In this document: positions 12,406 to 39,720 of the stretch, in pieces | Layout of the letters: each line of letters starts with the position of its first letter | How positions within the stretch are numbered: the stretch's first letter is position 1 | Assembly (NCBI GenBank): GCA_013166835.1 | Contig: JABLTI010000013.1 | Span: 1 to 41,923 of the forward strand | Source of the DNA: Promethearchaeati archaeon | GTDB taxonomy: Archaea > Asgardarchaeota > Heimdallarchaeia > JABLTI01 | Length of the DNA stretch: 41,923 nt | Direction of reading: 5' to 3' | Translations under genes and position numbers: made by a program | The notes under the pieces: generated by a model | Databases searched by the model: none | Told to the model about the DNA's origin: nothing | What the model saw: only the letters and a program-made list of their open reading frames with translations

Positions 12406-13554
12406 ATGGAAGGTATGAATATGGATTTGGATTCCTCAAAAGATATTGAACAAGAAACTCTTTTTGATAAAAAAATAAGTATTAAAAACATTTTAACTGA
12501 GGGTATAGCACAATTCCATTTGAAAATCGCGGGAAACAAAATCTCTGCAGCGAGAATCGAAGGATCATTTGATAATTATATTGAATACAGTAAGCTGCTG
12601 AAAAGCAATTCGTGGGATAAAGGATTAAGTGTTTCTCTTGATAAAGTCACTCTTTATCCATATCACCTTCAAGTTGCTTATGTACAAGCTTTTGAAAAAT
12701 TATTGGGAAATGCTTTGGAAGTTTCTAATAGAGCAAAATATTTACGAACAATCATTCTAGAGTTAGAAAGAATATCCCATCATCTCTCATTCATTGGTGT
12801 TTTAGGAAAAGGTGTCTCTTATCCACTTTTATTCTCTAAAGCAATTTCATTACGAAAAATTATTATTGATTTTATAATTGATTTAACGAATTCTTCTGAT
12901 AGAAAATCCTACATTAAATTTGGAGGAGTTTCTAAAGATATTGATGTGAAACTAACTAATAGAGCATTTTCTGTTTTAGAGATAATCAAGAAAAGTAGCT
13001 TGAAACTGAGAAAGAAAATTTCTAGAAATTCCATATTAAAAGGATTATTGCAAGATGTAGGATTTTTATCTCGAGATTCAGCTAAAAAATTATCTTTAGT
13101 AGGACCTATAGCAAGAGCCTCAGGTGTAACAGCTGATGTCAGAAGAACAGATCCTTATGCAGCCTATGAAGCAGTTCAATTCAATGTTCCAGTGTATGAT
13201 TCTTGTGATCTCTATGGAGAAGTGATGGTTCGAGTTGATGAAATCATAGAATCTATAAATATATTAAAACAACTTCTATCAAACCTACCAGAAGGAAGCT
13301 TAAATCAGGAATTTACTCAAGATCAGATTCCAGCAAAAAATTCCATTATGCGTATTGAAACACCATCTGGAGAGCTCTTTAGTTTTGCAATTAGTAAGAA
13401 AGGTACACTTGCTGAAAAACCTGTAAATTATAGTATTGTCTCTCCAATTAAACTTAATATACTAGGAGTTCTTTCCCGACTTTCTGGAGAATCATATGAT
13501 AATGTATTAGCTATCTTACTATTAATAGGTGAAGGCTGGAGTAGTTTCATGTAG
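12406..13554 (+). CDS. NuoD/group-4 hydrogenase large-subunit homologue lacking metal-binding motifs
   Basis: LRTIILELERISHHL, GPIARASGV..DVR..DPYAAY, VR.DE..ES, IETPSGE; no CxxC at either end. Confidence 0.8.
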   Translation: MEGMNMDLDSSKDIEQETLFDKKISIKNILTEGIAQFHLKIAGNKISAARIEGSFDNYIEYSKLLKSNSWDKGLSVSLDKVTLYPYHLQVAYVQAFEKLLGNALEVSNRAKYLRTIILELERISHHLSFIGVLGKGVSYPLLFSKAISLRKIIIDFIIDLTNSSDRKSYIKFGGVSKDIDVKLTNRAFSVLEIIKKSSLKLRKKISRNSILKGLLQDVGFLSRDSAKKLSLVGPIARASGVTADVRRTDPYAAYEAVQFNVPVYDSCDLYGEVMVRVDEIIESINILKQLLSNLPEGSLNQEFTQDQIPAKNSIMRIETPSGELFSFAISKKGTLAEKPVNYSIVSPIKLNILGVLSRLSGESYDNVLAILLLIGEGWSSFM

Positions 13555-13575
13555 AGTCACAAAAAAATTAGTGTT

Positions 13576-14610
13576 CTACTTTTTTATTGGATGACTTTCA
13601 GAAGGCTCATTATCTAATCTTGTTAGTTTTTTAGTTGATTGAATAAATTTTCTCAAGTTTTTTCGTTCAAATATTAAGAAAATTGCTAGTTGAAGTGAAA
13701 CTCCACCTATTATCCAATATACTGATCCCATCTCTCTTCCGGGTTCTTCAAATGAACTAGAAACAATATCGATGCTTTTCGTAATAACGAGTACTCCTTC
13801 CGCAACATTTGGAAAGCTACTCATTTGTTTCATATTTGAAGTAGTCGTTCCTGAAACCAATAAACCATCGGTATACCCATACGAAAGCCTAGTTTGGTTT
13901 TCGAATTCACCAAAATAGACATACTTTCCTAGGTAATCAGATAATATGAATTCTTCATATAGTGTAATATTCGAAAGTAAATTAGTTACATTACGTATTC
14001 CCTCAAACGTTGAGATAAGACTGTAGTTTGTGACTTGATAATTATTTGCTTTGATGGTAAGATTTTCTCCAATTGTAAGATTGGCTTTTGTCCAGAAAAA
14101 TGCGGTGGTATTTATTGGATAATAAGATGTATTTGTTGAAGAAGAGATTCGATGTGTATAATTATCGATAGTTATATTATCTTCTGCTAAATTAAAGTAC
14201 TCAGTTGAGTGTCTTTGAATAGTTTGGTTTTCATTTATCATTAATTCCTCATTGGATGAATAAGTATATTGCTGCACTATGTCAAATTTAATTTCATCCT
14301 CTGTTACATTCATTACTTTTATTGAAATCCCTGTGATTTCTTCTATTGACCATCTCAAAGCAGTATAATTAACAGTTTCCAATGTTTGATTGTCATTTTT
14401 CTCCAAATACAATCCTGTTATGTTTCCTTCGAAATTAAAATTGATAGCTTCTTCATAAGAAAAGATATCATCTATTTTAAAGAGATAATGATTTGCAGAA
14501 GTAGAATCATCTAAGAGTTTTGCACCAGAAACTAAGGTTGTGAATATAATTAAAATGCAAAATATTACAGAGAACAAAGTTCGATATATTCGTTTGTAAT
14601 TTTTTTGCAT
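13576..14610 (-). CDS. Predicted surface glycoprotein (N-terminal signal, C-terminal TM anchor)
   Basis: Hydrophobic N-terminus, roughly 15 N-x-S/T sequons by eye, VYWIIGG.. TM followed by basic residues. Confidence 0.75.
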   Translation of the reverse strand: MQKNYKRIYRTLFSVIFCILIIFTTLVSGAKLLDDSTSANHYLFKIDDIFSYEEAINFNFEGNITGLYLEKNDNQTLETVNYTALRWSIEEITGISIKVMNVTEDEIKFDIVQQYTYSSNEELMINENQTIQRHSTEYFNLAEDNITIDNYTHRISSSTNTSYYPINTTAFFWTKANLTIGENLTIKANNYQVTNYSLISTFEGIRNVTNLLSNITLYEEFILSDYLGKYVYFGEFENQTRLSYGYTDGLLVSGTTTSNMKQMSSFPNVAEGVLVITKSIDIVSSSFEEPGREMGSVYWIIGGVSLQLAIFLIFERKNLRKFIQSTKKLTRLDNEPSESHPIKK

Positions 14611-14775
14611 GTCTTAATAGCTCCCAAATTAGCAAATCTAATTGTTGCGTCAAAAGATTTTTAGCATTTCTCAATTAATCATTTAAATATTAAATATCCT
14701 TAGTATTAAAAGGGAAAAACTAGAATAAATTTCCTTCTATATAAAGCAAAGGATAACTAATTGGAGAAGCGCTAG

Positions 14776-15831
14776 ATGTTAGGTCCATGGTTTGAAATCG
14801 TAATATTTCCAGGATTTGTCTTTATAGTTATTCTAGCAATTTTAAGTGAACAAATAAATAATCGACTTAATTCTCGCTTCTACTTCAAGACAGAAAAAAC
14901 ACCAATGTTTATTCCAATTGTTGAAAATTTCAAGTTTTACATAAAAGGAGAGCAAGAAAGTATAAGTAGAAATTCTATTCTCCAAGGAATAATACTAGTT
15001 CTTATGGTAGCTTTACCATTATTTAGTTCCTTACTGCTACCAATCAACCTTTGGAGATCATTTGAAAATCTCCAAATACCAAACTGGATAGGTGTTTATG
15101 GTGGGTATACTGGTACAAATGAAGGTATTGTAGGAGTTATTACTTTTGAAGGGGATCTCCTTTTATTATTTGTACTAATACTATTTTTTGGTTTCCTCAC
15201 ATTTTTGGCTCAATACTTGAATAAACATCATTCCGCGAAAGAATCCCTAACAAAAACTTTCACTTTTATGATTTTTGACATTCCATTATTTTTTGTTTTA
15301 ATTGGTCCAATTATCGCTAAGAGATCTTTAAGTTTAACAATTCTTGCAGAAGATATTCGTAGGATTGTTAATTCCAATTTAACTTTTGGATTAGTATTTT
15401 TACTTCCAATAGCTGTTGTGGTTTCGTTGTTTTGTTTAGCTATGAAATTTGATCAACCTTATTTTGATCGAATTAATACTGATAGCATTATTAGAAGTAA
15501 TGCTCCTACTCCTAAGAATTGGAAATTAAATTTTTGGAATCTCTCCATGAGACTCATGGAAGTTGTCATCGCAGGTTTAATAGTTTCTGTTTTTTTAGGA
15601 GGTTCCTATTTACCAATACCTATTCACGGGAATTATCAGATATTAGCCAACACTGCGAATTTTATTTTCAAGTGTCTTGTTGTATTAATGATTACTACAA
15701 TAATTCGAGCATTAAGACCCCGAATGAGAGCAAATCAAACATTCAATTTTGCTTTGAAAATACTTACACCTCTTAGTTTTCTTTCGATTCTTCTAACCGG
15801 GGGTTATATTGGTTTAGTTGGTATAAATTGA
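14776..15831 (+). CDS. Divergent complex I subunit 1 (NuoH/EchB-like) membrane protein
   Basis: IFPG N-terminus, about 8 TM, VFLGG, IR...PRMR.NQ (cf. PR.R.DQ), PLS in the last helix. Confidence 0.75.
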   Translation: MLGPWFEIVIFPGFVFIVILAILSEQINNRLNSRFYFKTEKTPMFIPIVENFKFYIKGEQESISRNSILQGIILVLMVALPLFSSLLLPINLWRSFENLQIPNWIGVYGGYTGTNEGIVGVITFEGDLLLLFVLILFFGFLTFLAQYLNKHHSAKESLTKTFTFMIFDIPLFFVLIGPIIAKRSLSLTILAEDIRRIVNSNLTFGLVFLLPIAVVVSLFCLAMKFDQPYFDRINTDSIIRSNAPTPKNWKLNFWNLSMRLMEVVIAGLIVSVFLGGSYLPIPIHGNYQILANTANFIFKCLVVLMITTIIRALRPRMRANQTFNFALKILTPLSFLSILLTGGYIGLVGIN

Positions 15832-16640: not shown

Positions 16641-18131
16641 CTAATAATCATCTTCGTCGTCTTCGTATTCTTCTTCATCTTCTTCTTCTAAAGCATCCAT
16701 TTCAGCAATCTCTTCAGCAATTTCTTCGCCAGGTCCACCGTAATCTTCTTCTAATGCTAGTTCAACTTCGTCAGTTTCTTCAATTTCCTCTGGTTCTTCA
16801 AAGATATCTTCCGGAATTTCTTCAACTAATTCAGATGCTTCAGTCTTCAAGGCAATCATGAATCTACGAGCTAATAAGTCATAAAACTTAGTTAGTTCAC
16901 CAAGATCATTGGCTTCGTAAAATTCGCCTCTACCAATTTCAGATAATCGTTTCAATAGACGGTTATCAGCTTCTCCTAAACCAATAGTATAAAGTACTGT
17001 ATTTGGATAGTCTCGTCCGCATTTTCGAGCGATTGGTACAGGATTTATGCCTAAACCGTTACCTTTGTTCGGTTGTCCATCTGTTAAGAGAACAATCATT
17101 GCCGGATTCCTTTTACCAGTTATAGAATTAGGCTCAAATTTTGCAGTCATTTCATAAGCTTGTTGTAATGCTCCACTCATAAAAGTGAGACCACCACCTT
17201 TTGAACATCTTTTTGAGACATAATCTGCAATTATTTCTAAGCCAGCAGATTTTGCTTGTCCTGTACAAGCAATGACTGGTGTTGGACTTCCAGTTCCATA
17301 GTCTACTTCGAAAACATCAACGTCACCAGCAAAGCTGATTATGGAGAGCTGTTCTCCCCAACCTCGAGAAACTTTCTGAGATAAGAAAAGCAATGTCGCT
17401 AATGCTGCGCCTTTGATTCGTGAGACCTTTTTCTCATCGAATTCATCTAAGAGATTTTCTAAATCTCTTCCACCCTTTAAGCCTCGTCGAAGACCTTCAA
17501 CTGCTGTACCTGTTCCTTTTACAACCATATCTTCTTTGCTCATTGAGCCAGATACATCAAGAACTAAGACTGCGTTAAATGACATTTCACTTGCTGGAAC
17601 CAATTGAACTTCAATTTCTTTTCCAGAAGGATCGATAATTCCAACTTCATCACCTTCTATTTCTGGATCAGATTCTAAGAAAATGATTTTGACATGACCA
17701 CAACCTGCATCAGGCCAATCGACTTGCAAGTTTCTGTAAATCGGACGATTTCTAATAACTGAAGTCATCTCATCAAAGTTTTCTAATATATAAGAAATGC
17801 ATTCCTCAACTGGTTGACCTTCTAAAGGTTCGATTCCAAATTTTACTCGAGTAATTGGCTCTCTTTTCAAATGAGCTTTTCTGACCTTTACTCGATCACC
17901 ATCACTGATATTAGCAGAATCTAGTATCCCATTGTCAACAGCAATAGATTCAGCTTCAACCTCATCATTCTCCAATACCTGTACAGCACAGCTATCTTCA
18001 AATTCATTGATGAGTTGAATTATATCAAAATCGTCTACGCCGATTCTTTCCATATCACGTTTATTCAGGTAGGATCTTCCGTCAATTTCACCTACATTAA
18101 TGACTGAAATATCAATAATTTTCTCAACCAT
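16641..18131 (-). CDS. CDC48-N-like domain + von Willebrand A domain + acidic tail protein
   Basis: N-terminal DMERIGVDDFDIIQL...IAVD..ILDSANISDGDRVKVRKA resembles the p97/VAT double-psi barrel; MIDAS DVSGS...T...LTDG; last about 70 aa D/E-rich. Confidence 0.8.
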   Translation of the reverse strand: MVEKIIDISVINVGEIDGRSYLNKRDMERIGVDDFDIIQLINEFEDSCAVQVLENDEVEAESIAVDNGILDSANISDGDRVKVRKAHLKREPITRVKFGIEPLEGQPVEECISYILENFDEMTSVIRNRPIYRNLQVDWPDAGCGHVKIIFLESDPEIEGDEVGIIDPSGKEIEVQLVPASEMSFNAVLVLDVSGSMSKEDMVVKGTGTAVEGLRRGLKGGRDLENLLDEFDEKKVSRIKGAALATLLFLSQKVSRGWGEQLSIISFAGDVDVFEVDYGTGSPTPVIACTGQAKSAGLEIIADYVSKRCSKGGGLTFMSGALQQAYEMTAKFEPNSITGKRNPAMIVLLTDGQPNKGNGLGINPVPIARKCGRDYPNTVLYTIGLGEADNRLLKRLSEIGRGEFYEANDLGELTKFYDLLARRFMIALKTEASELVEEIPEDIFEEPEEIEETDEVELALEEDYGGPGEEIAEEIAEMDALEEEDEEEYEDDEDDY

Positions 18132-18320: not shown

Positions 18321-18857
18321 CTAATCATCAAATATGAATTCAAAGGATTTTTCTGCCTGAACTCCACCTGTCTGATCTTCATAATATATACGTAGAGTGT
18401 ATTCTAAAAAGTGTCCAAATATGAATAAACCTTCAGCGGTTTCTCCTTCAGGAGGGAGGGGTGGGAAAAGTGAACTGGCAGTAAAATTAATTGTCACCGT
18501 GAGTTCTTGACTCTTCTGTAATGTTATCCAATAAGCAGAGCCATTTCTAAAAGCCATTGGAGTATTGTCCCCATATACTATACTGTCTCTAAGAATAGTG
18601 ACTTCTTTCAGAATTCCTACATCATAATCACAAATCATCCTAAAGGATAGCTGAATATTATCAGTAGTATTTCCTCTGATGGAATTAGCTTTTATGGTCA
18701 TATTAAGATCTTGACCATAAAACGGAATTGTTGCAGCCATTACAATAAAAAATACAGCTAAAACTGATGCAGCGACAATTATACCTATCATTATAGGGGT
18801 CATAGCTTTTCGATTTTTTAAGATACTTGAGAGCTTCATTGATTCAACACTATCCAT
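18321..18857 (-). CDS. Type IV pilin/archaellin-like protein (class III signal peptide)
   Basis: KNRKA/MTPIMIGIIVAASVLAVFFIV: basic leader, cleavage after A, TP-hydrophobic helix. Confidence 0.7.
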   Translation of the reverse strand: MDSVESMKLSSILKNRKAMTPIMIGIIVAASVLAVFFIVMAATIPFYGQDLNMTIKANSIRGNTTDNIQLSFRMICDYDVGILKEVTILRDSIVYGDNTPMAFRNGSAYWITLQKSQELTVTINFTASSLFPPLPPEGETAEGLFIFGHFLEYTLRIYYEDQTGGVQAEKSFEFIFDD

Positions 18858-19258: not shown

Positions 19259-20239
19259 GTGGTAACCTTCTTCAAAGTAGTAGTTCTTGGTGACGGCGGA
19301 ATTGGAAAAACTTCCATATGTAACTATTTGACAACTGGCGAATTCTTTGGTAGCTATAAATTATCAATTGGGGCAGATTTCTTTAGTAAAAAATTAGTGG
19401 TTGATAGTGAGGAAGTAACCTTACAAATATGTGATATTGGCGGACAAGATCAGTTCGCTGAAATCAGCAACATTTTTACCAAGGGTGCACATGGATGCAT
19501 TCTCTGTTATGATACAACACGTCGAGATACTTTAGATTCTTTAGATCGATGGATTGGGAAGCTAGAAGATAACAGTATTCCTAAAGTCTTAGTTAGCACT
19601 AAAAATGATGTAGAAGATCTTCGTGAAGTTTTAGATGAAGAAGGGATTGAGACTGCAAAACGACTTAATATTTCTTTCTATATTCCAACAACAAGCTTGA
19701 AAGGAATAGGAATTACCGAAACTTTTGAAGCTATAAGTACATTAATGCTCTTACACAAAAAAGGAATGGATATGCCTGCAACTGAGTTGGTAGATGTAAC
19801 ACAAGAAAAACAATTAGAAATTCATACAATCTCTGGATCACAACATATGCAAGCTCAACCTTTAGGTATAGGGCGTGTGCCTTCAGCAGCAAATCATCTT
19901 GAAGCACCAATAGCTCCGGTTATTGAAGCAATAAAAGAAGAATACACACCACCTGTCGTTGAACCTACTGAAGCAGAACCATCATTTACTCAACCAATAA
20001 CCCTAACACCACCAGTTGTAGAAGAACATATAGAAGATAGAATCATACCTACTCCAAAAGAAATACAAAGCATAGAACCCCCTACAGAACCAGAAAAAAC
20101 TGCTATACAGCCAATTACTACAATTACTCCACCAATTTCAGAACAAAAGACAAATGATGAAGAGTCCGAAGATAAAGAAAGCACTTCTTTTCTAGACAGA
20201 TTACGTAAAGAGAGAAAGAAAACAGAAGATGAAGAATGA
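19259..20239 (+). CDS. Rab-like small GTPase with long Pro/Glu/Thr-rich C-terminal extension
   Basis: G1 GDGGIGKT, IGADF (RabF1-like), G3 DIGGQ, YD.T, G4 TKND. Confidence 0.9.
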   Translation: MVTFFKVVVLGDGGIGKTSICNYLTTGEFFGSYKLSIGADFFSKKLVVDSEEVTLQICDIGGQDQFAEISNIFTKGAHGCILCYDTTRRDTLDSLDRWIGKLEDNSIPKVLVSTKNDVEDLREVLDEEGIETAKRLNISFYIPTTSLKGIGITETFEAISTLMLLHKKGMDMPATELVDVTQEKQLEIHTISGSQHMQAQPLGIGRVPSAANHLEAPIAPVIEAIKEEYTPPVVEPTEAEPSFTQPITLTPPVVEEHIEDRIIPTPKEIQSIEPPTEPEKTAIQPITTITPPISEQKTNDEESEDKESTSFLDRLRKERKKTEDEE

Positions 20240-23991: not shown

Positions 23992-25419
23992 ATGATATTA
24001 GTATATGATAAAGAACAACCTGATAGCAAACCCCTAACATTAAATGTAATTGATACTCACACACATCTCGGCAAAGAAGAGGTGGTAAGGGGCAAAGGTA
24101 AGGATTATCGAATTATAAGACCAAAAGATCACTTAGATTTCTATGAGAAGTTAAAGTTCGATGTTTTTCAAAGAATTAATGCTTATCCTGAGGATTATGC
24201 TTACGCTATGCCAGAGGATCCAAAAGAGTTCAGTTTACCAGCAACGCAACTTCAAAAATTGATCTTTAAAGAAAAAAGAACAACTCAGAATCTAGGTTGG
24301 TTTGCAGACAAAATCGTCACTTTTCCATTACATGATATATTGCAATCTAAGACTGATCCACATTTTAAGAAATCAAATGATTATATATTAACTAGAGCTC
24401 AAACTTTAGAATATGGGTCACGACTTGTACCATTTTGTAGAGTGGACCCCAGAGATGAAGAAAAAGCTATAGATGAAATCGAGCGTTGTATTGAATATGG
24501 TGCCAGAGGATTAAAGCTTCACCCATTGTCTGAAGAATGGATTGAAGAAATTGTAAGCGACAAAGTTATTGACGTCGTACGTACTGCAGTTGATAATAAA
24601 CTACCAGTACTCTTTGATTGTCAGAACTATAAAACAGCTGAAGAAATTCACCAAGTAGCCATGGAAGTACGAGCACAGAGTAAAAACAAAGATTTTACTT
24701 TAATTGTAGGACATTTTGGTTTTGATTATCTAACTCCAGGAATGTACGAAATTTTAAGTGATCCAAATATTAAAACAGAAACTTCGGGCATGCGCGGGGA
24801 TGATTGCGAAGTTTTCTACAAAAATTGTTTAGATCTTGTTGATGATTGGTATTTTTCAACTATGTATGGTTCAGATCATAGTTACTTTAGTGTTCCTCAA
24901 GCAAGCGATCATATAACTTTTCTATTTTCAAATACTGCAAAAGATTTAGGGATTTCATTTGAGCATATCAGACACATCTTGGGAATTAATGCTCTTCGAA
25001 TTTTGAAGATTTATTGGCCAACGAAAGTGATTAATAGAAAAGGTGTTAGTAAATCAAAAGTTACTTGGGGAGACTTCAATAAAATAATGGATTGTACAAA
25101 ATATGAGGATTTAGCAAAAACTGTAACAGATTTATCTGAAATCTCTGGTGTGTATTTTAACACAGATTCTTTGTTTGATCCATCTGGTGAAAATGTCTAT
25201 GAGGAACTCTTTATTCTCAATATTTTTGCTGATATTATTGATCTTCGACGTAGTTTCGTAGTGCAACATTCTGATGATAACAAGCTTAAAATTTCAGAAA
25301 TTACAAAACTTATGGATTTCGCATCCAAGATAACTCAGATACTAGAAGAAGAGGATGAAACATATCCATTTACTCAACAGTATTTGTTTGATTATTTATT
25401 ACATCAAAAACCAAAATGA
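23992..25419 (+). CDS. Amidohydrolase-superfamily (Amidohydro_2-like) metallohydrolase with C-terminal extension
   Basis: IDTHTH, FCRVDP, GARGLKLHP, IVGHFG, YGSD, GINALRIL; GAGG upstream. Confidence 0.85.
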   Translation: MILVYDKEQPDSKPLTLNVIDTHTHLGKEEVVRGKGKDYRIIRPKDHLDFYEKLKFDVFQRINAYPEDYAYAMPEDPKEFSLPATQLQKLIFKEKRTTQNLGWFADKIVTFPLHDILQSKTDPHFKKSNDYILTRAQTLEYGSRLVPFCRVDPRDEEKAIDEIERCIEYGARGLKLHPLSEEWIEEIVSDKVIDVVRTAVDNKLPVLFDCQNYKTAEEIHQVAMEVRAQSKNKDFTLIVGHFGFDYLTPGMYEILSDPNIKTETSGMRGDDCEVFYKNCLDLVDDWYFSTMYGSDHSYFSVPQASDHITFLFSNTAKDLGISFEHIRHILGINALRILKIYWPTKVINRKGVSKSKVTWGDFNKIMDCTKYEDLAKTVTDLSEISGVYFNTDSLFDPSGENVYEELFILNIFADIIDLRRSFVVQHSDDNKLKISEITKLMDFASKITQILEEEDETYPFTQQYLFDYLLHQKPK

Positions 25420-25452
25420 GTTTAATCAAGCCCTAAAAGTAAGTGAAAAACA

Positions 25453-28400
25453 ATGAGTAATCCCTCCAATAAAATTCCAACAACCAATAAAACCAATACT
25501 TTACGTAAATTGGTTTTTTCACATGGAATTGAGGTTGAGAATTTTATTACTAATAAAAGAGGAGACATACTCGAAGATGGAAAAGAATTAGTTGCTGTAT
25601 GGGATCAAATGTTCAATGGAGCGTTAAATTTCCTAAAATCTCTTACTAGTAGTTCCACAAATGTGCCTGAATACATCCGTAGAAAAATAAAAAGAGTAAC
25701 TCGAAAAGATGTTAAAAGGCATGGTAAAATAATCAGATATGTACAGATTCATTATCAATTTAATGGTAAAACAATAGCAATCAATGTTTTTGGACCAGAC
25801 CCAAATATTTCTCAAATCACATGGTTACTTGAACTAGTTACTCCCCCATGTGAGTACTTTGAGGAATTGGATTGGTGGATTAATACCCTTTATTTAGCAG
25901 CATCAAGGTCTTTGACGAAAGGATATAATATACAACCTCTAGGATTTAATCCTTATCAAACTGAGTACCGAGCAGGTGTAACTTGTGGTGAACATCATCA
26001 CCTTGGAGGATTTAAGAGTCCAAAAGAAAAGAAAGCCGCGTACAATATGGTAAGAGCTTATATTCCACATCTAATTGCTCTTTCAAATACATCACCTTTT
26101 ATCGATGGAAAACCGGATGGTAGAACTATTCTGAAAAAAGGAGAAGATGGCAGAACGTTAATTCTAGCTCCTGATTGTGTCAGAAGTCAAAGATTAAAAG
26201 AAAATTCAGGACAACTTGGACCAAATATCCCTGAATATTTACCTTATGTTGGACCTTCTTTCACAAGGCAACAATTTTCAAGATATGTAAGAAAGGAAGT
26301 GCCTGACGATCGATACGTGGATGCATTTCCATTTACTACTTATGATACTATTGAGTTTCGATTTTTTGATGTTCAATATGATCAGAATATTAGAAAATCA
26401 ATCATAATAGTACTACAAGCACTTGCATTAAAAGCAGTCAAGCTTACTCGAGCAGGAAAAACTATTCCTGATGTAAAAGGCAACACATTATATGAACACC
26501 GAAAAAGAGCAGTAAATTTCGGTATGTTCGCCAAATTTCAAGGAGACCCGAGTATCGAATCTTTAGGCGGGCAATTTGTAAAACATTATAATCACAATCC
26601 CGAAACAGGTGGACCTCCTGGAAAAATTTACGAATCTTTAAGGTCAATGATGATATGGTTAAAGCCAGAATTCATTGATTTAAAAATAAATGAAAACGAT
26701 CTTACATCCATTTTAATCATGTTATGGGGAACCGCAAGAATTGCCCCTCCCATCTCCGCTGCAACATATATGTTTTATTTATATGAAAAAAATCATGGGA
26801 ATATTGCTAATGTAATAAATTCATTAGCTTTAATCAATGGCAAACCTCGCAAATCATTTTCAGAAGTATTAGGTAGACCTCAATATTCAATGTCAAACCT
26901 AATTTCAACAAAAGTAGCTAAACCAGTTCAGACAGCAGATACAACTAGAAGTTCCTTAGCGAGAAAGCTACAACTAGAGTCAAGACAACGACGCAAAAAA
27001 ACAATGGTGAAAGAAAAAGCGAGATTGAAAGCAAAACAAAGTCTTAAAACAAAAATGATACGGGAGAATGTGAAGAAAGAGAGAGAAATAGAAAAGAAAC
27101 GACAAGATCGACTAAGGCAACTTGAAAAGGCTAAAAAACCTCCTCCAAGACCTTTAAGAGCATCATCCTCTGCTACCAGAACATCATCAAGCATCTATAA
27201 AACTAAAATACCTGTTAGCAAAAGTAGAGTTCCACCGAGAAAAACAGTTTCCGTAAAAACTACAAAAAGAATTACGCCCACAAAATCAGCAAAAAAACCT
27301 CTTACTAAAACTCAGAAAATCTCTTCTAAACCCAAGCAACCAAAAAGAAAACCAACCAAAAAAGCTATGGCTAAAAGAGCTCCTCCTTCCAAAAGTGTAG
27401 TTAGAAAGCAACCGAGCAAGAAGAAAGTCCTAACAAAATCAGCAATTTCTAACAGATCCAAATCCATCCATACAACCAGGAAGAAGCCTGTTCAAGCATA
27501 TGCATCAACAGCATCTAGAAGCGCATATTCAAGAAAACAGATTAAGCTTCCACAACCAACAATAAAAAAACGAACGACAGCAAAAACCGTTACTAGAAAA
27601 AAGAGTACACCAAAGAAAGCGACAGCATCAACAAAAGCTGTATCTACACAAATGATACTTCAATATGAATCATATAGAGATACTAAGTTCATAAGAAGTT
27701 TATCAATATCAAATATGCCTTCAAGAATTGATTACAGCACTATCATACCTGTTATTAAATTAAAATGGAGAAAATCAATTATTCAATCAATGTTAACATA
27801 TCCAATAAAAATTGAAGCACAAGTTTCTGCTCTTGAAAAAAGAAACAAGTTCAAAGCAACTGCTTTTCAAGAGACTATTAAATTGGAGAAATCATCCTTA
27901 AAAGACACTTGTTACTTACCAATTCCAATTAATCTTAACAATTCGACAGGGGAATTTCAAGTAAAATTTATTGTTAGAGATGGTAAAAAGAGCAATATTT
28001 TAGGGACAGAATATCGAACTTTTAATCGTATAAAAATTCCAAGTGATAAGAAGCATCAGATTACAAGATTAAGTATTCCACCAAACCAAGTTGGAGATTC
28101 AAAAGTTAACATTATAGTAAATGCTTCAAAGAATAACTCAAGAGGAAAGATTACTCTTTGGGGTATTTCACAACGAGGAATTATGAAATTTTATGAGAAA
28201 AAGGCAAAGTTTAGACAAAGAAAAATTTCTCTAGACATACCTGTTCTTATACCACCAAGTATGTGTTCCTCACAATGGATGTTATATTTAGTGTTTAATG
28301 CAAGAGGAACGAGTATTTCAGCATACACAAAAACACCTCCTCCGCTATCAAAGGTTATTAATTTTAGTTTAAGTGGTAACCCACCCTTAAGATCAAGAGT

Positions 28401-28728
28401 TTATTCGGATTTCCATGCAGAATTAACTCCCAAACTCATTTTTAAGACTAGATGTGAAATCAGTGAAATCGAAATTCTACAGGTTGAAAATAATAATAGT
28501 ATGAAAAATCTCAAGAAATACCGATTAAAATCAAGAATTAACAAAGGAGAGAAATTTGTTTTGGAATCCTTTGAATGGAAAGCACCATCTATGCGAAAAG
28601 GCCTCTTTGGTTCTCATAAACAAAAATCAGTAGAATTCTATTGTCGTATTGTTGATAACTTAGGGGAAATAAATGATTCTTTAATTGGTAAAGTTGAAAC
28701 ACCAATAATTACCGTGTTCAAGAAGTGA
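25453..28728 (+). CDS. Carboxylate-amine ligase (GCS2/YbdK-like) fused to polybasic low-complexity linker and beta-rich C-terminal domains
   Basis: HGIEVE, LELVTPP, GEHHHLG, LIALS..SPF..G, TIEFRFFD; residues about 490-735 K/R/S/T/P-rich. Confidence 0.8.
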   Translation: MSNPSNKIPTTNKTNTLRKLVFSHGIEVENFITNKRGDILEDGKELVAVWDQMFNGALNFLKSLTSSSTNVPEYIRRKIKRVTRKDVKRHGKIIRYVQIHYQFNGKTIAINVFGPDPNISQITWLLELVTPPCEYFEELDWWINTLYLAASRSLTKGYNIQPLGFNPYQTEYRAGVTCGEHHHLGGFKSPKEKKAAYNMVRAYIPHLIALSNTSPFIDGKPDGRTILKKGEDGRTLILAPDCVRSQRLKENSGQLGPNIPEYLPYVGPSFTRQQFSRYVRKEVPDDRYVDAFPFTTYDTIEFRFFDVQYDQNIRKSIIIVLQALALKAVKLTRAGKTIPDVKGNTLYEHRKRAVNFGMFAKFQGDPSIESLGGQFVKHYNHNPETGGPPGKIYESLRSMMIWLKPEFIDLKINENDLTSILIMLWGTARIAPPISAATYMFYLYEKNHGNIANVINSLALINGKPRKSFSEVLGRPQYSMSNLISTKVAKPVQTADTTRSSLARKLQLESRQRRKKTMVKEKARLKAKQSLKTKMIRENVKKEREIEKKRQDRLRQLEKAKKPPPRPLRASSSATRTSSSIYKTKIPVSKSRVPPRKTVSVKTTKRITPTKSAKKPLTKTQKISSKPKQPKRKPTKKAMAKRAPPSKSVVRKQPSKKKVLTKSAISNRSKSIHTTRKKPVQAYASTASRSAYSRKQIKLPQPTIKKRTTAKTVTRKKSTPKKATASTKAVSTQMILQYESYRDTKFIRSLSISNMPSRIDYSTIIPVIKLKWRKSIIQSMLTYPIKIEAQVSALEKRNKFKATAFQETIKLEKSSLKDTCYLPIPINLNNSTGEFQVKFIVRDGKKSNILGTEYRTFNRIKIPSDKKHQITRLSIPPNQVGDSKVNIIVNASKNNSRGKITLWGISQRGIMKFYEKKAKFRQRKISLDIPVLIPPSMCSSQWMLYLVFNARGTSISAYTKTPPPLSKVINFSLSGNPPLRSRVYSDFHAELTPKLIFKTRCEISEIEILQVENNNSMKNLKKYRLKSRINKGEKFVLESFEWKAPSMRKGLFGSHKQKSVEFYCRIVDNLGEINDSLIGKVETPIITVFKK

Positions 28729-31072: not shown

Positions 31073-31333
31073 CTATTTTTGTAATGAGAGTAGGATCAGT
31101 GCGGCAATAATTCCTCTTCTCGCTAATTCAACTTTAAAAGGATCCCTTTCAAGAACATCACATAAAGCTTTCCAGCGAACGACAGTATCAAAACTTGCAG
31201 GATATTTACTTAAACAAAAAACAGCTGCAACAATCCCCTTGTCTCTCTCTTCTTTAAATTGTCTTTGAGTTAGAAGATCGTAAAATGTTTTCCAACGGAT
31301 AGCAGCATCTAATTCGGGAATTCTTTTAGCCAT
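31073..31333 (-). CDS. Small protein made of two tandem ~40-aa repeats
   Basis: D...RWK...D.L....FK.E...GI.AA...LS occurs twice. Confidence 0.7.
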   Translation of the reverse strand: MAKRIPELDAAIRWKTFYDLLTQRQFKEERDKGIVAAVFCLSKYPASFDTVVRWKALCDVLERDPFKVELARRGIIAALILLSLQK

Positions 31334-31600: not shown

Positions 31601-32068
31601 ATGGAACTCAGTGAAGACGACTTTTGGGCAAGATTAGCAATTGAAGCAGGTGAAATGAAAAAAGAACAACCGAACTTCACACCAGTAAACGGTGATACAA
31701 GGGTATGGAGAGGATTCCTTATTGGAACAGGAATTTATTCTGGGGGAGTATTCCAATTTGAATTGCGATTACCAAGATCGTTTCCATTTAAACCACCCAA
31801 AGGTAAAGCTATAACTCCAATTTGGCATCCGAATATTTTCAAAGAACGTATTTGTATTGGGATTTTAGGAAAAGATTGGACCCCTGCAAGTAATCTTGTT
31901 GATGTTGTTGAGTCTCTAAGATTTTTGTTGTCAAATCCAAATCCGGACGATCCATTAAATACAACTGCAGCAAAGGAATTCAAAAATAATCGTAAAGAGT
32001 TCGAAAGAAAAGCAAAACAGTATATTGAGAAATATGCGACGTGGGATGAGCTTGGAAGAGGTACCTAA
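31601..32068 (+). CDS. Ubiquitin-conjugating enzyme E2
   Basis: Y.GG.F, FPFKPP, WHPNI, catalytic Cys in RICIGIL, W.PA, PNPDDPLN. Confidence 0.93.
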   Translation: MELSEDDFWARLAIEAGEMKKEQPNFTPVNGDTRVWRGFLIGTGIYSGGVFQFELRLPRSFPFKPPKGKAITPIWHPNIFKERICIGILGKDWTPASNLVDVVESLRFLLSNPNPDDPLNTTAAKEFKNNRKEFERKAKQYIEKYATWDELGRGT

Positions 32069-36824: not shown

Positions 36825-36954
36825 TCTTACATATAGGTGCTATCTTAACATCTTTTTTCTTTTATTTAACCATTGTATTGATTTCTACGATAATCTTTTA
36901 TCTATTATCGTTTAATATATCTTTTATAAAACTATATTGAGGGCGATACAAACT

Positions 36955-39720
36955 ATGAATTCTAAAATTTTATCCAAGTGCTTTGCACTTTTTGTTATTT
37001 TACTATTCCCTATAACCATGACGATGTTTTTACCTACACAGGCTATTTCTGATAATGACAGTAACTTCCTAAATGCAAAAGGCAATGATAGCTTTATTGA
37101 GGATTTTACTACAACAACTTATAGAGATGGCGGTGCTACAGATGCATATGGTTGGGGATCTGGAACTGTTTTGAATCCAAGAAATTATACTTGGGAATTA
37201 TTAGATTTCTTAGCTACTCCTAATCCAGTATCTGGATTGGAAGTACAAGGAAGGAAAGCTTACATTGCTTGTCTCAATTATACATCTACACCTGATGATG
37301 TAAAAGTAATTGATTTAAGTGACTTATATAACTTAGTAGTTTTGGACACTACGAATTTTTATAGTGGATCTATGACTATAGATGTAGATGGCGACACTAT
37401 TTATGTAGGAAAGGATTTTGCCATAACTCCAGCACAATATCTTTTGACATATGATGCTACTGATCCAACCAATGTTGGAATTTATGATAATATTGTTACC
37501 AGTGGACTAGTAACTGATATTGATGCTGAAGGACGTTTAGTTTACTTTACTGAGTATGGAGCATCTGATGGTAAATCAATTGGAGTACTTGATGCTGAAG
37601 ATCCTTCAAATTTGGTTAACATTAATAACAATTGGACTTCTGATCAAGCATTGGGATTGGAAGTTGAAGGACAAATAGCATATGTTGCTGCTAGTTTTGA
37701 TGGATTCTATGTCCTCAATATAGCCAGTAAGCATAGATCATTTGAATATGGATATGTTGACACACCAGGGAATGCTACTGATGTGATTATTGATGGTGAT
37801 TTGGCATATCTTGCAGATGGTCCTGGTGGAGTACATATAATTGATGTTAATGATCCTACCAATCCTACGATAGTAGGCAGTTATGATACTCCTGGAAATG
37901 CTTTGCGTCTGGTAAAGCAAGGAAACACTTTGTTTATTGCTGATGGCTATGGTGGAGTTCAAGTGTTAGATGTAGCTGATCCGGCTAATCCTTTATTCGT
38001 GACTGAGATGCAATCAATTTCTTATGTTTCTGATTTAGACCTTTATGGTGGAGATTTAGTTGTAGGCACAGCTGATGGTGTTTATACATATCATATTGGT
38101 TATGTAGGCGACTTCTCAAGCATGTGGTATGATAATCCATATTCTGCACTAAATGCTACAGATGTTCGAGTTCAAGGAAATATTGCTTATGTTGTTGGTG
38201 GTTCAGACGGATTATATACTCTAGATATTAGTAATCCTCTAAATCCTATACTCCTTGACCAAGATATCCAAGGAGGTACACCCTACTATCGAAAACTAGA
38301 TGTTCGAGGTAATTTTGCCTATGTTTGTGATTATGGAAATGCTTTTCGAGTCTATAACATCAGTGATCCAACAAATATTATCCAAACTGATACCAGAACT
38401 CTTAGCTATACAACAGATATTGCTGTTGCGGGAGATATGGCCTTTATAGCTGATGGATCACTTGGTGTTTACATCTACAATATAAGTGATCCCTATAACA
38501 TTCCTTCACCCTATAGCTCCTTTGATGTCTTTACAAACGTGACTTCTCTTTGGGTTCAAGGTAATTATTTATATGTAGTTGATAATATTGCCGGGGGTCC
38601 TATAGCAACCAGCCTTTACATTTATGATATTTCAGATATTGCCAATGAAGTATTATTGGGATCAGATTCAGTAGATGCTCAGTTTTTTGATATTTTTGTT
38701 GATGGTGATATAGCCTATACAGCTGACAAAGATTGGATGATCCTTTATGATGTAACTGACCCTACTCTTCCAGGTTTTACTTCTTGGACTAATCAAGAGA
38801 GTTATGGTGTTTGGGGATTCGGTCCTTATTGTCTTAGTGCAGATACTTTTGAAGGAGTATCATTAGTCAATTGTACAGATATTAACCTTGTTAATTCTAT
38901 AATGAGTATCTATCCAAATGCTACAGGTGCTTTGCAAGTAACAACTCATGGCGACTACACATATGTTGCAAATACATCCTCATTGGTTATTTTGCGTCAT
39001 TTTGAGAGTGCTGGAGCAACATTCGACCCAGGAACCTCAATAGCTCAATCTTTAGAAGTCGACAGTGCAACAGGTGATGATATAAAATTAGCTACTTTGA
39101 CTACAGAACATTTCATTCCTCCAGGGACAGGCATTGACTATTATATGTCAGCTGATGGTGGCGCTCATTGGGAAGCTGTCACTCCAGGAGTAGAACATGA
39201 GTTTGTTTTTTCAGGCGACGATTTACGTTGGAAAGCTGAAATAACTGGACCCAAAGATCGCAGTGCTCATATCTATCAAATAACAATTGATTACTTCTTT
39301 AATGAAGCTCCAAGTATACCTACTATTAATGATCCTGGTGATGTAATCCAGGTAGGTAGTGTTGAAGTTAATTGGAGTACTAGTACAGATGATGCTGGAA
39401 TAGATCACTATGAATTACAAATGGACAATGAAACAGGATTTACTACACCAGTCTATACTTTCAATGTTCCTGGTTTATCTCAAGTTATTTCAGGTTTAAC
39501 GAATGGAGACTATTACTTCCGAGTACGGGCTGTTGACATTTACGACCTAGCTGGTGGTTGGAGTGCTGTAGTCAATTTAACAGTCGATATTCCTCCAACT
39601 AGCACACCACTTGATTTACCTTGGTGGGTTTATGTCATCATTGGTGGTGGACTTCTGCTTATTACAGCAATTGTTGTTGTGATAGTTGTTGTAAGAAAAC
39701 GCAAAGTAGTAACAAGATAA
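36955..39720 (+). CDS. LVIVD-repeat (beta-propeller) surface protein with FN3 domain and C-terminal TM anchor
   Basis: Signal peptide; many G..AY.AD...G..I.D(I/V)S.P.NP repeats; W.......YELQ...GL....Y.FRVRA FN3; TM + RKRK. Confidence 0.9.
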   Translation: MNSKILSKCFALFVILLFPITMTMFLPTQAISDNDSNFLNAKGNDSFIEDFTTTTYRDGGATDAYGWGSGTVLNPRNYTWELLDFLATPNPVSGLEVQGRKAYIACLNYTSTPDDVKVIDLSDLYNLVVLDTTNFYSGSMTIDVDGDTIYVGKDFAITPAQYLLTYDATDPTNVGIYDNIVTSGLVTDIDAEGRLVYFTEYGASDGKSIGVLDAEDPSNLVNINNNWTSDQALGLEVEGQIAYVAASFDGFYVLNIASKHRSFEYGYVDTPGNATDVIIDGDLAYLADGPGGVHIIDVNDPTNPTIVGSYDTPGNALRLVKQGNTLFIADGYGGVQVLDVADPANPLFVTEMQSISYVSDLDLYGGDLVVGTADGVYTYHIGYVGDFSSMWYDNPYSALNATDVRVQGNIAYVVGGSDGLYTLDISNPLNPILLDQDIQGGTPYYRKLDVRGNFAYVCDYGNAFRVYNISDPTNIIQTDTRTLSYTTDIAVAGDMAFIADGSLGVYIYNISDPYNIPSPYSSFDVFTNVTSLWVQGNYLYVVDNIAGGPIATSLYIYDISDIANEVLLGSDSVDAQFFDIFVDGDIAYTADKDWMILYDVTDPTLPGFTSWTNQESYGVWGFGPYCLSADTFEGVSLVNCTDINLVNSIMSIYPNATGALQVTTHGDYTYVANTSSLVILRHFESAGATFDPGTSIAQSLEVDSATGDDIKLATLTTEHFIPPGTGIDYYMSADGGAHWEAVTPGVEHEFVFSGDDLRWKAEITGPKDRSAHIYQITIDYFFNEAPSIPTINDPGDVIQVGSVEVNWSTSTDDAGIDHYELQMDNETGFTTPVYTFNVPGLSQVISGLTNGDYYFRVRAVDIYDLAGGWSAVVNLTVDIPPTSTPLDLPWWVYVIIGGGLLLITAIVVVIVVVRKRKVVTR

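What the first reader, a model, noticed from the sequence alone, without database searches (positions are those of the whole stretch)
23992..28728. Amidohydrolase + giant polybasic carboxylate-amine ligase: candidate writer/eraser peptide-modification system
Seen: two co-oriented genes 33 bp apart. The first is a metallo-amidohydrolase (HxH, KLH, H, D). The second has intact GCS2/YbdK-type ligase motifs (ExE, E, HxH, ExRxxD) but is 1091 aa, about three times a typical YbdK. Known: this ligase fold forms ATP-dependent amide/isopeptide bonds in glutamate-cysteine ligase, in PafA of pupylation and in peptide-tagging amidoligases, which often sit next to a peptidase or amidase. Inference: a ligase/deconjugase pair acting on a macromolecule rather than making gamma-glutamylcysteine, possibly an undescribed Asgard post-translational tagging system.
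Basis: partly seen in the sequence, partly recalled or inferred. Interest (0 to 1): 0.8.

Follow-up and report, generated by a model that had tools for sequence, protein, structure and literature searches.

The report
Asgard ligase–hydrolase–VWA gene trio
The two flagged genes are real and belong to a three-gene set that Asgard archaea keep together: an ATP-dependent amide-bond ligase with a long basic arm and three Ig-like domains, a metal hydrolase, and a metal-site docking protein; what the set acts on is unknown.

Summary
Observation confirmed. ORFs 23992-25419 (475 aa, Amidohydro_2) and 25453-28728 (1091 aa) lie 33 bp apart on one strand. Ligase residues 1-465 model as a YbdK/GCS2 fold with every catalytic motif invariant. 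Residues 466-729 form a linker of net charge +74. Residues 730-1091 model as three beta-sandwich domains.

The hydrolase lay within the fetched flank of the ligase in 66 of 80 Asgard loci. The two gene trees agree on the main splits.

It sits next to the ligase in other lineages and is fused to it in one protein. In 121 sampled genomes of the phylum, 49 hold all three genes and 66 hold none.

Best reading (0.45): a ligase/hydrolase cycle on a macromolecular target, probably protein. Main rival (0.3): small-molecule amide metabolism. No tag gene or substrate was identified, and my paper searches found no description. This scan had already noted the same trio on other genomes.

The parts
23992..25419 (+). 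Metal-dependent amidohydrolase-superfamily protein (475 aa), Amidohydro_2 type. It has an insertion of about 80 aa after the HxH strand and a variable C-terminal extension of about 125 aa.
   Evidence: Pfam PF04909, E 1.3e-10; 14 of 17 family members match PF04909. D21, H23, H25, K175, H177, H241 and D295 are invariant. No NCBIfam match and no PDB sequence match at E<0.4.
25420..25452 (+). 33-bp spacer between hydrolase and ligase with no T-run. T-rich tracts follow the upstream PFK gene and the ligase stop, so the pair reads as a two-gene transcription unit (inference from sequence).
   Evidence: In the second family (f3) the two genes overlap by 4 bp in 9 of 10 loci that hold both.
25453..26847 (+). 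Ligase catalytic domain (residues 1-465): a divergent YbdK/GCS2-type carboxylate-amine ligase.
   Evidence: AlphaFold2 model: pLDDT 88.4, pTM 0.91. Foldseek top hits are YbdK 1tt4 and 1r8g (E 6e-14, TM 0.73), then plant GCL 2gwc; PafA 4bjr at E 9e-6. Profile against PDB: YbdK, E 1e-5. Catalytic motifs invariant in 43 sequences.
26848..27639 (+). Polybasic, low-complexity linker (residues 466-729): 56 K, 28 R, 2 D, 8 E, net +74; 84 S/T/P; 5 aromatics.
   Evidence: The sequence is variable, but a basic segment recurs in the long forms of other lineages.
27640..28728 (+). C-terminal region (residues 730-1091): three tandem beta-sandwich (Ig/FN3/macroglobulin-like) domains.
   Evidence: AlphaFold2 model: pLDDT 86.6, pTM 0.82, all-beta. 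Foldseek hits are macroglobulin-domain proteins, integrin legs and FN3 arrays (E about 5e-9, low TM as expected for a multi-domain array). Ig-like neighbours in the ESM Atlas, scores 0.81-0.88, count as a lead only.
16641..18131 (-). Third component: a Cdc48N-like barrel plus a VWA domain with a complete MIDAS site (D192-x-S194-x-S196, T316, D351), and a 68-residue acidic C-terminal tail (37 D/E).
   Evidence: Pfam VWA, E 1.2e-9; CDC48_N, E 1.7e-6, below its cut-off. It matches the profile of the ligase-adjacent VWA family of other Asgard lineages at E 2.3e-176. MIDAS residues invariant in 16 sequences. Tail. Aligns colinearly with the N-terminal half of a VWA-ligase fusion protein.

Best explanation
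The hydrolase (23992-25419) and ligase (25453-28728), together with the Cdc48N-VWA protein (16641-18131, minus strand), are one copy of a three-gene module kept across Asgard archaea. The ligase domain most likely activates a carboxylate with ATP as an acyl-phosphate and joins it to an amine, which is the chemistry of its superfamily. Its non-catalytic parts (basic arm, three Ig-like domains) and the MIDAS-VWA partner point to a macromolecular target, most likely a protein, that is docked or recruited. The metal hydrolase then removes or processes the same amide bond. Shown here: the genes, folds, intact catalytic and metal-site motifs, joint inheritance, and one fusion. Inferred: the chemistry, the macromolecular target, and the opposing roles of ligase and hydrolase. 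Unknown: both substrates.
For: (1) Linkage. The hydrolase family lay in the fetched flank of the ligase in 66 of 80 Asgard loci. Gene order differs between lineages: hydrolase then ligase; ligase then hydrolase; ligase> VWA< hydrolase<.
(2) The main ligase clades (23, 33 and 2 loci) are splits in both the ligase and hydrolase trees, with support 0.93 or higher. 30 of 55 bipartitions are shared. One genome, G033, holds both paralogous pairs.
(3) In 121 phylum genomes the ligase was found in 51, the hydrolase in 53 and the VWA protein in 52. All three were in 49 and none in 66.
(4) The VWA family is adjacent to the ligase in 17 of 80 loci. It is fused in front of the ligase domain in P0066, where it aligns colinearly with the window's VWA protein over residues 11-424 at E 3e-16.
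(5) The catalytic motifs and the GhExE signature are invariant; the signature is as defined in PMC2588565 (passages read). The fold is YbdK-like.
(6) Interaction modules rather than metabolic ones: three Ig-like domains, a +74 linker, and relatives carrying Zn-ribbon, HHH or VWA modules or reaching 2232-3804 aa.
(7) None of the three proteins has a membrane-like hydrophobic segment.
(8) Near-identical contigs from an RNA library lie on both genes. This is weak evidence, because such libraries can also contain DNA.
Against: No biochemical data exist. No small ORF of 25-99 aa near the core genes is conserved beyond one genus-level group (at most 6 of 80 loci), so no Pup-like tag gene sits beside the system. 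The nearest solved relative is YbdK, a small-molecule enzyme. PafA and Dop are more distant (TM 0.33-0.46 against 0.73). From my recollection, not from a call, the characterised Amidohydro_2 members act on small molecules. Iyer et al. read other carboxylate-amine ligase plus peptidase neighbourhoods that lack small ORFs as glutathione-like peptide metabolism (PMC2588565). Related genomes are not independent samples, so the co-occurrence counts overstate the number of independent events.
Confidence: 0.45

Rival explanations
1. Small-molecule pathway. The ligase makes a free amide, such as a gamma-glutamyl-type peptide, low-molecular-weight thiol, solute or cofactor precursor. The Amidohydro_2 enzyme is a hydrolase, decarboxylase or cyclase in the synthesis or turnover of that compound. 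The extra domains and the VWA protein only localise or regulate the enzymes.
For: The closest fold and sequence relatives are YbdK and the glutamate-cysteine ligases. No tag-like ORF is conserved nearby. The published precedent for ligase plus hydrolase neighbourhoods without small ORFs is glutathione-like metabolism (PMC2588565). Public records label relatives 'glutamate-cysteine ligase family protein'.
Against: It scores far below the YbdK and GshA model cut-offs (47.6 against 176.4 bits). No other biosynthetic gene is conserved around the trio across lineages. Ig-like arrays, polybasic arms, and VWA, Zn-ribbon or HHH fusions are unusual for metabolic enzymes. A MIDAS-VWA/Cdc48N partner with matching distribution, and one fusion to it, is hard to explain in this reading.
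Confidence: 0.3
2. Processing rather than erasing. The hydrolase prepares the ligase's substrate, for example by deamidating or trimming it to expose the carboxylate or amine, as Dop does for Pup. The two enzymes would then act in series, not in opposition.
For: The genes are tightly coupled, with a 4-bp overlap in 9 of 10 f3 loci and a 33-bp gap here. That fits two steps of one pathway made in fixed proportion. The Dop precedent is in the abstracts listed (PMC7947786, PMC3511204).
Against: Dop is a homologue of its ligase, whereas this hydrolase belongs to an unrelated superfamily. No candidate precursor is encoded nearby.
Confidence: 0.15
3. Non-enzymatic scaffold. The ligase domain no longer catalyses ligation and the protein is a structural or adaptor component.
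For: It is very divergent from the curated YbdK and GshA models, and about 57% of the protein is non-catalytic.
Against: All metal-, ATP- and phosphate-binding motifs are invariant over 43 sequences down to 34% identity, and the domain model is confident.
Confidence: 0.05
4. The adjacency is incidental and the two genes have unrelated functions.
For: In this genus the flanking genes are housekeeping (PFK, MetRS), and the VWA gene is about 6 kb away on the other strand.
Against:: linkage persists through rearrangements, the trees agree, and the genes are present or absent together.
Confidence: 0.02

Closest known systems
YbdK / GCS2 carboxylate-amine ligases (PF04107, TIGR02050; E. coli YbdK 1r8g, Salmonella 1tt4)
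   Same: Same fold (Foldseek E 6e-14, TM 0.73 on the target). Same GhExE, HxH and ExRxxD motifs. The Pfam gathering score is passed.
   Different: Only 51 of 291 Pfam profile positions match, and it is far below the TIGR02050 cut-off. The domain is 465 aa rather than about 370, with family-specific invariant blocks (FGPDPNxxQITWxLELVTPPC, with invariant C133). It carries a basic linker and three Ig-like domains, 1091 aa in total, and is co-inherited with a hydrolase and a VWA protein.
Pupylation enzymes PafA (ligase) and Dop (deamidase/depupylase)
   Same: A glutamine-synthetase-fold carboxylate-amine ligase paired with an enzyme that hydrolyses amides. Iyer et al. propose that PafA arose from a GCS2 precursor (PMC2588565). 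This is the working analogy for a protein-directed ligase and hydrolase.
   Different: The fold match is weaker than to YbdK (PafA E 9e-6, TM 0.33-0.35; Dop TM 0.38-0.46). The hydrolase here is an Amidohydro_2 protein, not a ligase paralogue. There is no Pup-like ORF, and no proteasome or AAA gene in the window.
Carboxylate-amine ligase plus peptidase neighbourhoods described by Iyer, Burroughs and Aravind 2008 (transglutaminase-ligase fusions; ligase with GAT-like peptidase or gamma-glutamyl cyclotransferase)
   Same: A ligase of this superfamily is genomically coupled to a hydrolytic enzyme, without a small tag ORF.
   Different: The partners there belong to different families and the systems are bacterial. 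The authors read them as small-peptide metabolism. None includes a VWA/Cdc48N partner or Ig-like tails (passages read; Additional file 1 not seen).
Amidohydro_2 family (PF04909)
   Same: The Pfam score is above its cut-off. The HxH, H, H, D pattern is invariant, with spacing like that family's mononuclear enzymes (the comparison with ACMSD-type sites is recalled, not from a call).
   Different: No NCBIfam family and no solved relative by sequence. It has an insertion of about 80 aa after the first strand and a C-terminal extension of about 125 aa. The reaction is unknown.

Membership tests
GCS2/YbdK carboxylate-amine ligase (PF04107) | Pfam model above its gathering score | tested here: met
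   26.2 bits against 21, E 6.1e-6, but only residues 173-223 are matched
GCS2/YbdK carboxylate-amine ligase (PF04107) | GhExE signature and the Mg/ATP-binding acidic, His and Arg residues | tested here: met
   G25-I-E27-V-E29, E127, H181, H183, E301, R303 and D306 are invariant in 43 sequences; the signature is defined in PMC2588565
GCS2/YbdK carboxylate-amine ligase (PF04107) | Glutamine-synthetase-like ligase fold nearest to YbdK | tested here: met
   Foldseek: 1tt4 and 1r8g, E 6e-14 to 9e-14, TM 0.73-0.74
YbdK subfamily (TIGR02050) / GshA equivalogs | NCBIfam curated cut-off | tested here: not met
   47.6 bits against 176.4; all GshA and YbdK equivalog models are also far below their cut-offs
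YbdK subfamily (TIGR02050) / GshA equivalogs | gamma-Glu-Cys ligase activity | not testable with these tools
   needs an enzyme assay
Pupylation (PafA/Dop/Pup) | The ligase is closer to PafA/Dop than to other GS-fold ligases | tested here: not met
   PafA E 9e-6, TM 0.33-0.35; Dop TM 0.38-0.46; YbdK TM 0.73
Pupylation (PafA/Dop/Pup) | A small disordered tag gene (Pup) in the neighbourhood | tested here: not met
   Gaps around the pair are 33 bp, 146 bp and 139 bp. No intergenic ORF of 25-99 aa is shared by more than 6 of 80 loci. A tag encoded elsewhere is not excluded.
Pupylation (PafA/Dop/Pup) | Linkage to proteasome or AAA unfoldase genes | tested here: not met
   None among the 33 window ORFs scanned
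Amidohydro_2 (PF04909) | Pfam model above its gathering score | tested here: met
   42 bits against 26.4; 14 of 17 relatives match
Amidohydro_2 (PF04909) | Metal-ligand pattern HxH ... H ... H ... D | tested here: met
   H23, H25, H177, H241 and D295 are invariant in 17 sequences
Amidohydro_2 (PF04909) | (beta/alpha)8 barrel fold | not tested
VWA domain with MIDAS | VWA model above its cut-off and a DxSxS...T...D metal site | tested here: met
   VWA 39 bits against 23.8; D192, S194, S196, T316 and D351 are invariant in 16 sequences
CDC48_N (PF02359) | Pfam model above its gathering score | tested here: inconclusive
   28.5 bits against 35.1 for the window protein. 16 of 16 family members match at E<=1, best 6.7e-10. 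A profile hit to another double-psi barrel (Fwd subunit D, E 0.0024) is consistent.

The most novel reading that the evidence does not exclude
An Asgard-wide, ubiquitin-independent system of reversible protein modification built on a YbdK-type ligase. The ligase writes an isopeptide or amide mark, an Amidohydro_2 enzyme removes it, and a MIDAS-VWA/Cdc48N protein acts as adaptor, reader or target. The polybasic arm would tether the ligase to a polyanion, either nucleic acid or chromatin, or the partner's own acidic tail. It would be a functional analogue of pupylation that arose separately in the closest archaeal relatives of eukaryotes.
Probability: 0.3. Interest if true: 0.85.

Novelty: new variant of a known kind. 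Interest (0 to 1): 0.68.

Why it matters
Asgard archaea are the closest known prokaryotic relatives of eukaryotes, and their regulatory protein machinery is studied for clues to how eukaryotes arose. This three-gene module was found in 49 of 121 sampled genomes of the phylum. In the public records I saw, relatives are labelled only 'hypothetical' or 'glutamate-cysteine ligase family protein'. None of my four paper searches found a description of it. If it is a protein-modification cycle, it would be a second case, after pupylation, of a glutamine-synthetase-fold ligase recruited for tagging, and it would add a new kind of mark to archaeal cell biology. If it is metabolic, it points to an unknown amide compound typical of Asgard archaea. 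Either outcome can be tested with three recombinant proteins.

Tried and rejected
1. Complex prediction of the ligase catalytic domain with the hydrolase gave no verdict (score 0.00, mark 0.32). It counts neither for nor against binding.

2. An earlier scan note suggests that the VWA protein resembles the N-terminal part of eukaryotic DEPDC5. I could not test this. A Pfam scan of 16 members found no IML1/DEPDC5 family. A profile search of PDB sequences found only ITIH VWA domains (E 0.002) and a double-psi barrel (E 0.0024).

3. The 620-aa gene that always precedes the short Loki-type ligase (40 loci) is not related to the VWA family by hhalign (probability 0.1).

4. The idea that the VWA protein's C-terminal residue is a Pup-like glutamate donor was rejected. 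The C-termini differ...DDY...EEN...EDD and ...EEL in this family, and mostly E in others.

5. The second VWA paralogue in this genome (contig C129) lies among housekeeping genes, with no ligase or hydrolase nearby.

6. The neighbour families of other lineages (a 303-aa protein, an EF-Tu-like small GTPase, a Toprim-like protein, the 620-aa protein) have no homologue in this genome at E<=1e-5.

7. The 178-aa ORF upstream of the VWA gene is conserved only within this taxonomic family.

8. Parts of the region without cover in the RNA run X18 say nothing about expression.

9. ESM Atlas look-ups gave only generic Ig-like and Amidohydro_2 neighbours.
Full report
THE OBSERVATION

One is 23992-25419 (475 aa) and the other is 25453-28728 (1091 aa), with 33 bp between them. 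The upstream gene is a phosphofructokinase and the downstream gene a methionyl-tRNA synthetase. T-rich tracts follow the PFK stop and the ligase stop, but the 33-bp spacer has none. I therefore read the pair as one transcription unit; this is an inference from the sequence. An independent DNA assembly (run X5) has a single contig, 24507-27672, across the junction with one difference. An RNA-library run (X18) holds near-identical short contigs inside both genes: 25049-25246, 26498-26750 and 27347-27571. The tool warns that RNA libraries can contain DNA, so this is only weak evidence of transcription.

THE HYDROLASE

The 475-aa protein matches Pfam Amidohydro_2 at E 1.3e-10, with 42 bits against a cut-off of 26.4. 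Of 17 relatives, 14 match the same family. D21, H23, H25, K175, H177, H241 and D295 are invariant in those 17 sequences, so the metal site looks intact. The protein has no NCBIfam family and no solved relative by sequence. The Pfam match starts only at residue 128, after an insertion of about 80 residues. The last 125 or so residues vary between lineages. I did not model this protein.

THE LIGASE

Residues 1-465 give a confident model (pLDDT 88.4, pTM 0.91). Its best structural matches are the two YbdK structures (E 6e-14, TM 0.73). Plant and bacterial glutamate-cysteine ligases follow, then PafA, Dop and the glutamine synthetases at a greater distance.

By sequence the relation to YbdK is thin. 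Pfam GCS2 scores 26.2 bits over 51 profile positions. TIGR02050 scores 47.6 bits against a cut-off of 176.4. A profile of the family finds YbdK in the PDB at E 1e-5 in three colinear blocks.

The catalytic signature is complete and invariant in 43 sequences down to 34% identity: G-I-E27-V-E29, E127, H181/H183 and E301-x-R303-x-x-D306. The first of these is the GhExE signature that Iyer et al. describe as distinctive of carboxylate-amine ligases (PMC2588565, passages read). The family also has its own invariant blocks, including FGPDPNxxQITWxLELVTPPC with an invariant cysteine, C133.

Residues 466-729 form a low-complexity linker with 56 K, 28 R, 2 D and 8 E, a net charge of +74.

Residues 730-1091 model confidently (pLDDT 86.6) as three beta-sandwich domains. 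Their structural neighbours are macroglobulin-domain proteins, integrin legs and FN3 arrays.

None of the three proteins has a membrane-like hydrophobic stretch.

IS THE PAIRING CONSERVED?

Yes. Among 41 related genomes the ligase was found in 11 of 11 of the window's family and 12 of 14 of a second family. Strong hydrolase matches were in 11 of 11 and 10 of 14. In each case the hydrolase lay directly upstream on the same strand. In the second family the two genes overlap by 4 bp in 9 of the 10 loci that hold both.

A scan of one genome per species returned 102 confirmed loci, of which the best 80 were kept. Most record titles name Asgard groups: Heimdall-, Hod-, Jord-, Frey-, Thor- and Hermodarchaeota and Promethearchaeia. 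The exceptions are a few 'uncultured archaeon' records, two labelled Bathyarchaeia and one labelled Thermoproteota. In 66 of the 80 loci the hydrolase family lies within the fetched flank.

Three arrangements occur:
- hydrolase followed by a long ligase (about 980-1093 aa), as in this window;
- a short ligase (about 550-600 aa) followed by a 513-aa hydrolase, in the Loki-type lineages;
- a very long ligase (1228-1399 aa) with the hydrolase a few kb downstream on the other strand.

For 58 non-redundant loci, these three groups are splits in both the ligase and the hydrolase trees (support 0.98 and 0.93; 1.0 and 1.0; 1.0 and 1.0). 30 of 55 bipartitions are shared, and patristic distances correlate at r = 0.99 (0 of 999 permutations reach this). 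Related genomes inflate that last figure. One genome, G033, carries both a long-type and a short-type pair. The pair was therefore duplicated and inherited as a unit.

A THIRD COMPONENT

Clustering the neighbours showed a family of about 430 aa directly beside the ligase in 17 of 80 loci. It lies downstream on the same strand in the second family, and between ligase and hydrolase on the opposite strand in the Jord/Frey-type loci. The family has a Cdc48N-like barrel followed by a VWA domain.

The window carries a member at 16641-18131 on the minus strand, which matches the family profile at E 2.3e-176. Its MIDAS residues D192, S194, S196, T316 and D351 are invariant in 16 sequences. With a mean column identity of 63%, this family is better conserved than the ligase or the hydrolase.

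One metagenomic protein, P0066 (962 aa), is a fusion. Its first 406 residues align colinearly with residues 11-424 of the window's VWA protein (E 3e-16), and the ligase domain follows.

In an evenly drawn sample of 121 genomes of the phylum (completeness at least 80%), the ligase was found in 51, the hydrolase in 53 and the VWA family in 52. All three were found in 49 and none in 66. The six exceptions are:
- G023 and G013, whose contigs end inside the locus;
- G087, one weak ligase-only match;
- G116 and G125, with hydrolase and VWA but no ligase found;
- G103, with VWA only.

In some families the adjacent pair is VWA and hydrolase, with the ligase about 10 kb away. Two families carry two complete paralogous sets. 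Each of the three pairwise adjacencies therefore occurs in some lineage. In this genome the ligase and hydrolase are single-copy, and the VWA protein has one distant paralogue among housekeeping genes.

HOW LARGE AND HOW KNOWN IS THE FAMILY?

A profile search of 1.84 billion representative proteins found 479 hits at E<=1e-3, but only 95 at E<=1e-30. These range from about 100 to 3804 aa, and some carry the ligase domain near the C-terminus of giant proteins. Among 16 of them scanned, I saw fusions to VWA, to double zinc ribbons and to a helix-hairpin-helix module.

Named records are 'hypothetical protein', 'glutamate-cysteine ligase family protein' or an automatic YbdK label. All named organisms are Asgard groups, apart from one marine sediment metagenome entry and one Thermoplasmatota member.

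Four full-text searches found no description of the system: Asgard with glutamate-cysteine ligase, amidohydrolase and vWA; GCS2/YbdK/amidoligase terms; Asgard with carboxylate-amine ligase; Asgard with von Willebrand, MIDAS and Cdc48. Those searches cover open-access papers and bioRxiv only. Earlier agents of this scan reported the same trio on other genomes. I had reached the trio from my own before reading those notes, and they agree with what I found.

WHAT IT MOST LIKELY DOES

The chemistry is inferred from the superfamily. ATP activates a carboxylate as an acyl-phosphate, and an amine then attacks it to form an amide (PMC2588565).

The target is not known. I favour a macromolecular target, probably protein, at 0.45, for four reasons:
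- The catalytic domain is repeatedly joined to interaction modules rather than metabolic ones.
- Its constant partner is a MIDAS-VWA/Cdc48N protein, a type of docking module, and that partner can be fused to it.
- No other biosynthetic gene travels with the trio.
- A metal hydrolase travels with the ligase, as expected for a removable or processed mark.

The main rival is a small-molecule amide pathway, at 0.3. It is supported by YbdK being the nearest relative, by the absence of any conserved small ORF beside the system, and by the published reading of other ligase-peptidase neighbourhoods as glutathione-like metabolism. A variant, at 0.15, has the hydrolase preparing the substrate rather than erasing the mark. 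A dead-enzyme scaffold (0.05) and chance adjacency (0.02) are poorly supported.

A LINEAGE-SPECIFIC DETAIL

In the window's family, all 12 VWA orthologues carry an acidic C-terminal tail of about 45-70 residues; the window's tail has 37 D/E in 68 residues. In the other lineages the tail beyond the profile match is 1-21 residues. The same family has the longest basic arm in the ligase: net +70 over residues 499-722, against +8 to +55 elsewhere.

The opposite charges may mean that the arm and the tail bind each other, or that the tail is a substrate. This is effectively a single evolutionary event, so it is a hint and not a test.

COMPARISON AND VERDICT

The ligase domain belongs to the GCS2/YbdK superfamily in fold and motifs, but it fails the curated YbdK and GshA models. 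It is best called a new, Asgard-centred subfamily with its own architecture. It works like a carboxylate-amine ligase. Whether the system works like pupylation is untested, and it is not a member of the PafA/Dop/Pup system.

I rate it a new variant of a known kind, with interest 0.68.

Noticed in passing
window 16641-18131 (-) and 26848-27639 (+): Opposite charges expanded together. All 12 VWA orthologues of this taxonomic family have an acidic C-terminal tail of about 45-70 residues with a conserved DEVELAxEExYG motif, and the same family has the longest polybasic ligase arm (about +70). Other lineages have short tails and shorter arms.
   Followed up: partly
window 19259-20239 (+); loci L047, L050, L084, L090, L103; L038-L062; L063-L100: Small GTPases and Roadblock/LC7 genes recur near the trio in different lineages. 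A Ras-family gene lies here, and its family is in 12 of 80 loci. An EF-Tu-like small GTPase is in 9 loci and Roadblock in 10. This genome has 16 Ras-like ORFs in 3.56 Mb, so one within about 7 kb by chance is roughly a 6% event.
   Followed up: partly
window 31601-32068 (+): A lone ubiquitin-conjugating enzyme (E2, UQ_con, E 7e-33) sits about 600 bp downstream of MetRS and about 2.9 kb from the ligase. It keeps this position within the genus only (family F21). No E1, ubiquitin or RING gene was seen in the window.
   Followed up: no
proteins P0050, P0053, P0055, P0057, P0060, P0063, P0072: Giant relatives of 2232-3804 aa carry the same ligase domain near their C-terminus. In the four that I scanned (P0050, P0053, P0055, P0060), Pfam found only GCS2 and, in P0053, a helix-hairpin-helix module.
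   Followed up: no
loci L063-L104 (Loki-type): The short ligase is always preceded by an unannotated gene of about 620 aa (40 loci). Upstream of that, an undecaprenyl-diphosphate-synthase-like gene and an HMG-CoA-synthase-like gene are common. A coiled-coil protein often follows the hydrolase. In those genomes a VWA-like protein of about 725 aa lies 20-56 kb away on the same contig.
   Followed up: partly
loci L031 and L055: Records titled 'Bathyarchaeia' (L031) and 'Thermoproteota' (L055) carry this Asgard-type ligase, 81% and 44% identical in protein to the window's. For L031 at least, the MAG label is probably wrong.
   Followed up: no
window 31073-31333 (-): An 86-aa ORF between MetRS and the E2 gene is conserved in 6 loci of the same genus. 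It contains an internal repeat (RWKxxxDxL twice).
   Followed up: no
window 12406-15831: A NuoD-like gene (Complex1_49kDa) and a NuoH-like gene (NADHdh) are separated by an unannotated 344-aa gene on the opposite strand.
   Followed up: no
window 36937-39720 (+): A 927-aa protein with LVIVD repeats (E 1e-35) lies downstream of an ABC-2 transporter operon and ThyX.
   Followed up: no
window 18321-18857 (-): A 178-aa ORF with no Pfam match lies directly upstream of the VWA gene. It is conserved there in all 11 other loci of this taxonomic family (in two frames in one of them) and is covered by an RNA-library contig. No homologue was found near the trio in other lineages.
   Followed up: partly
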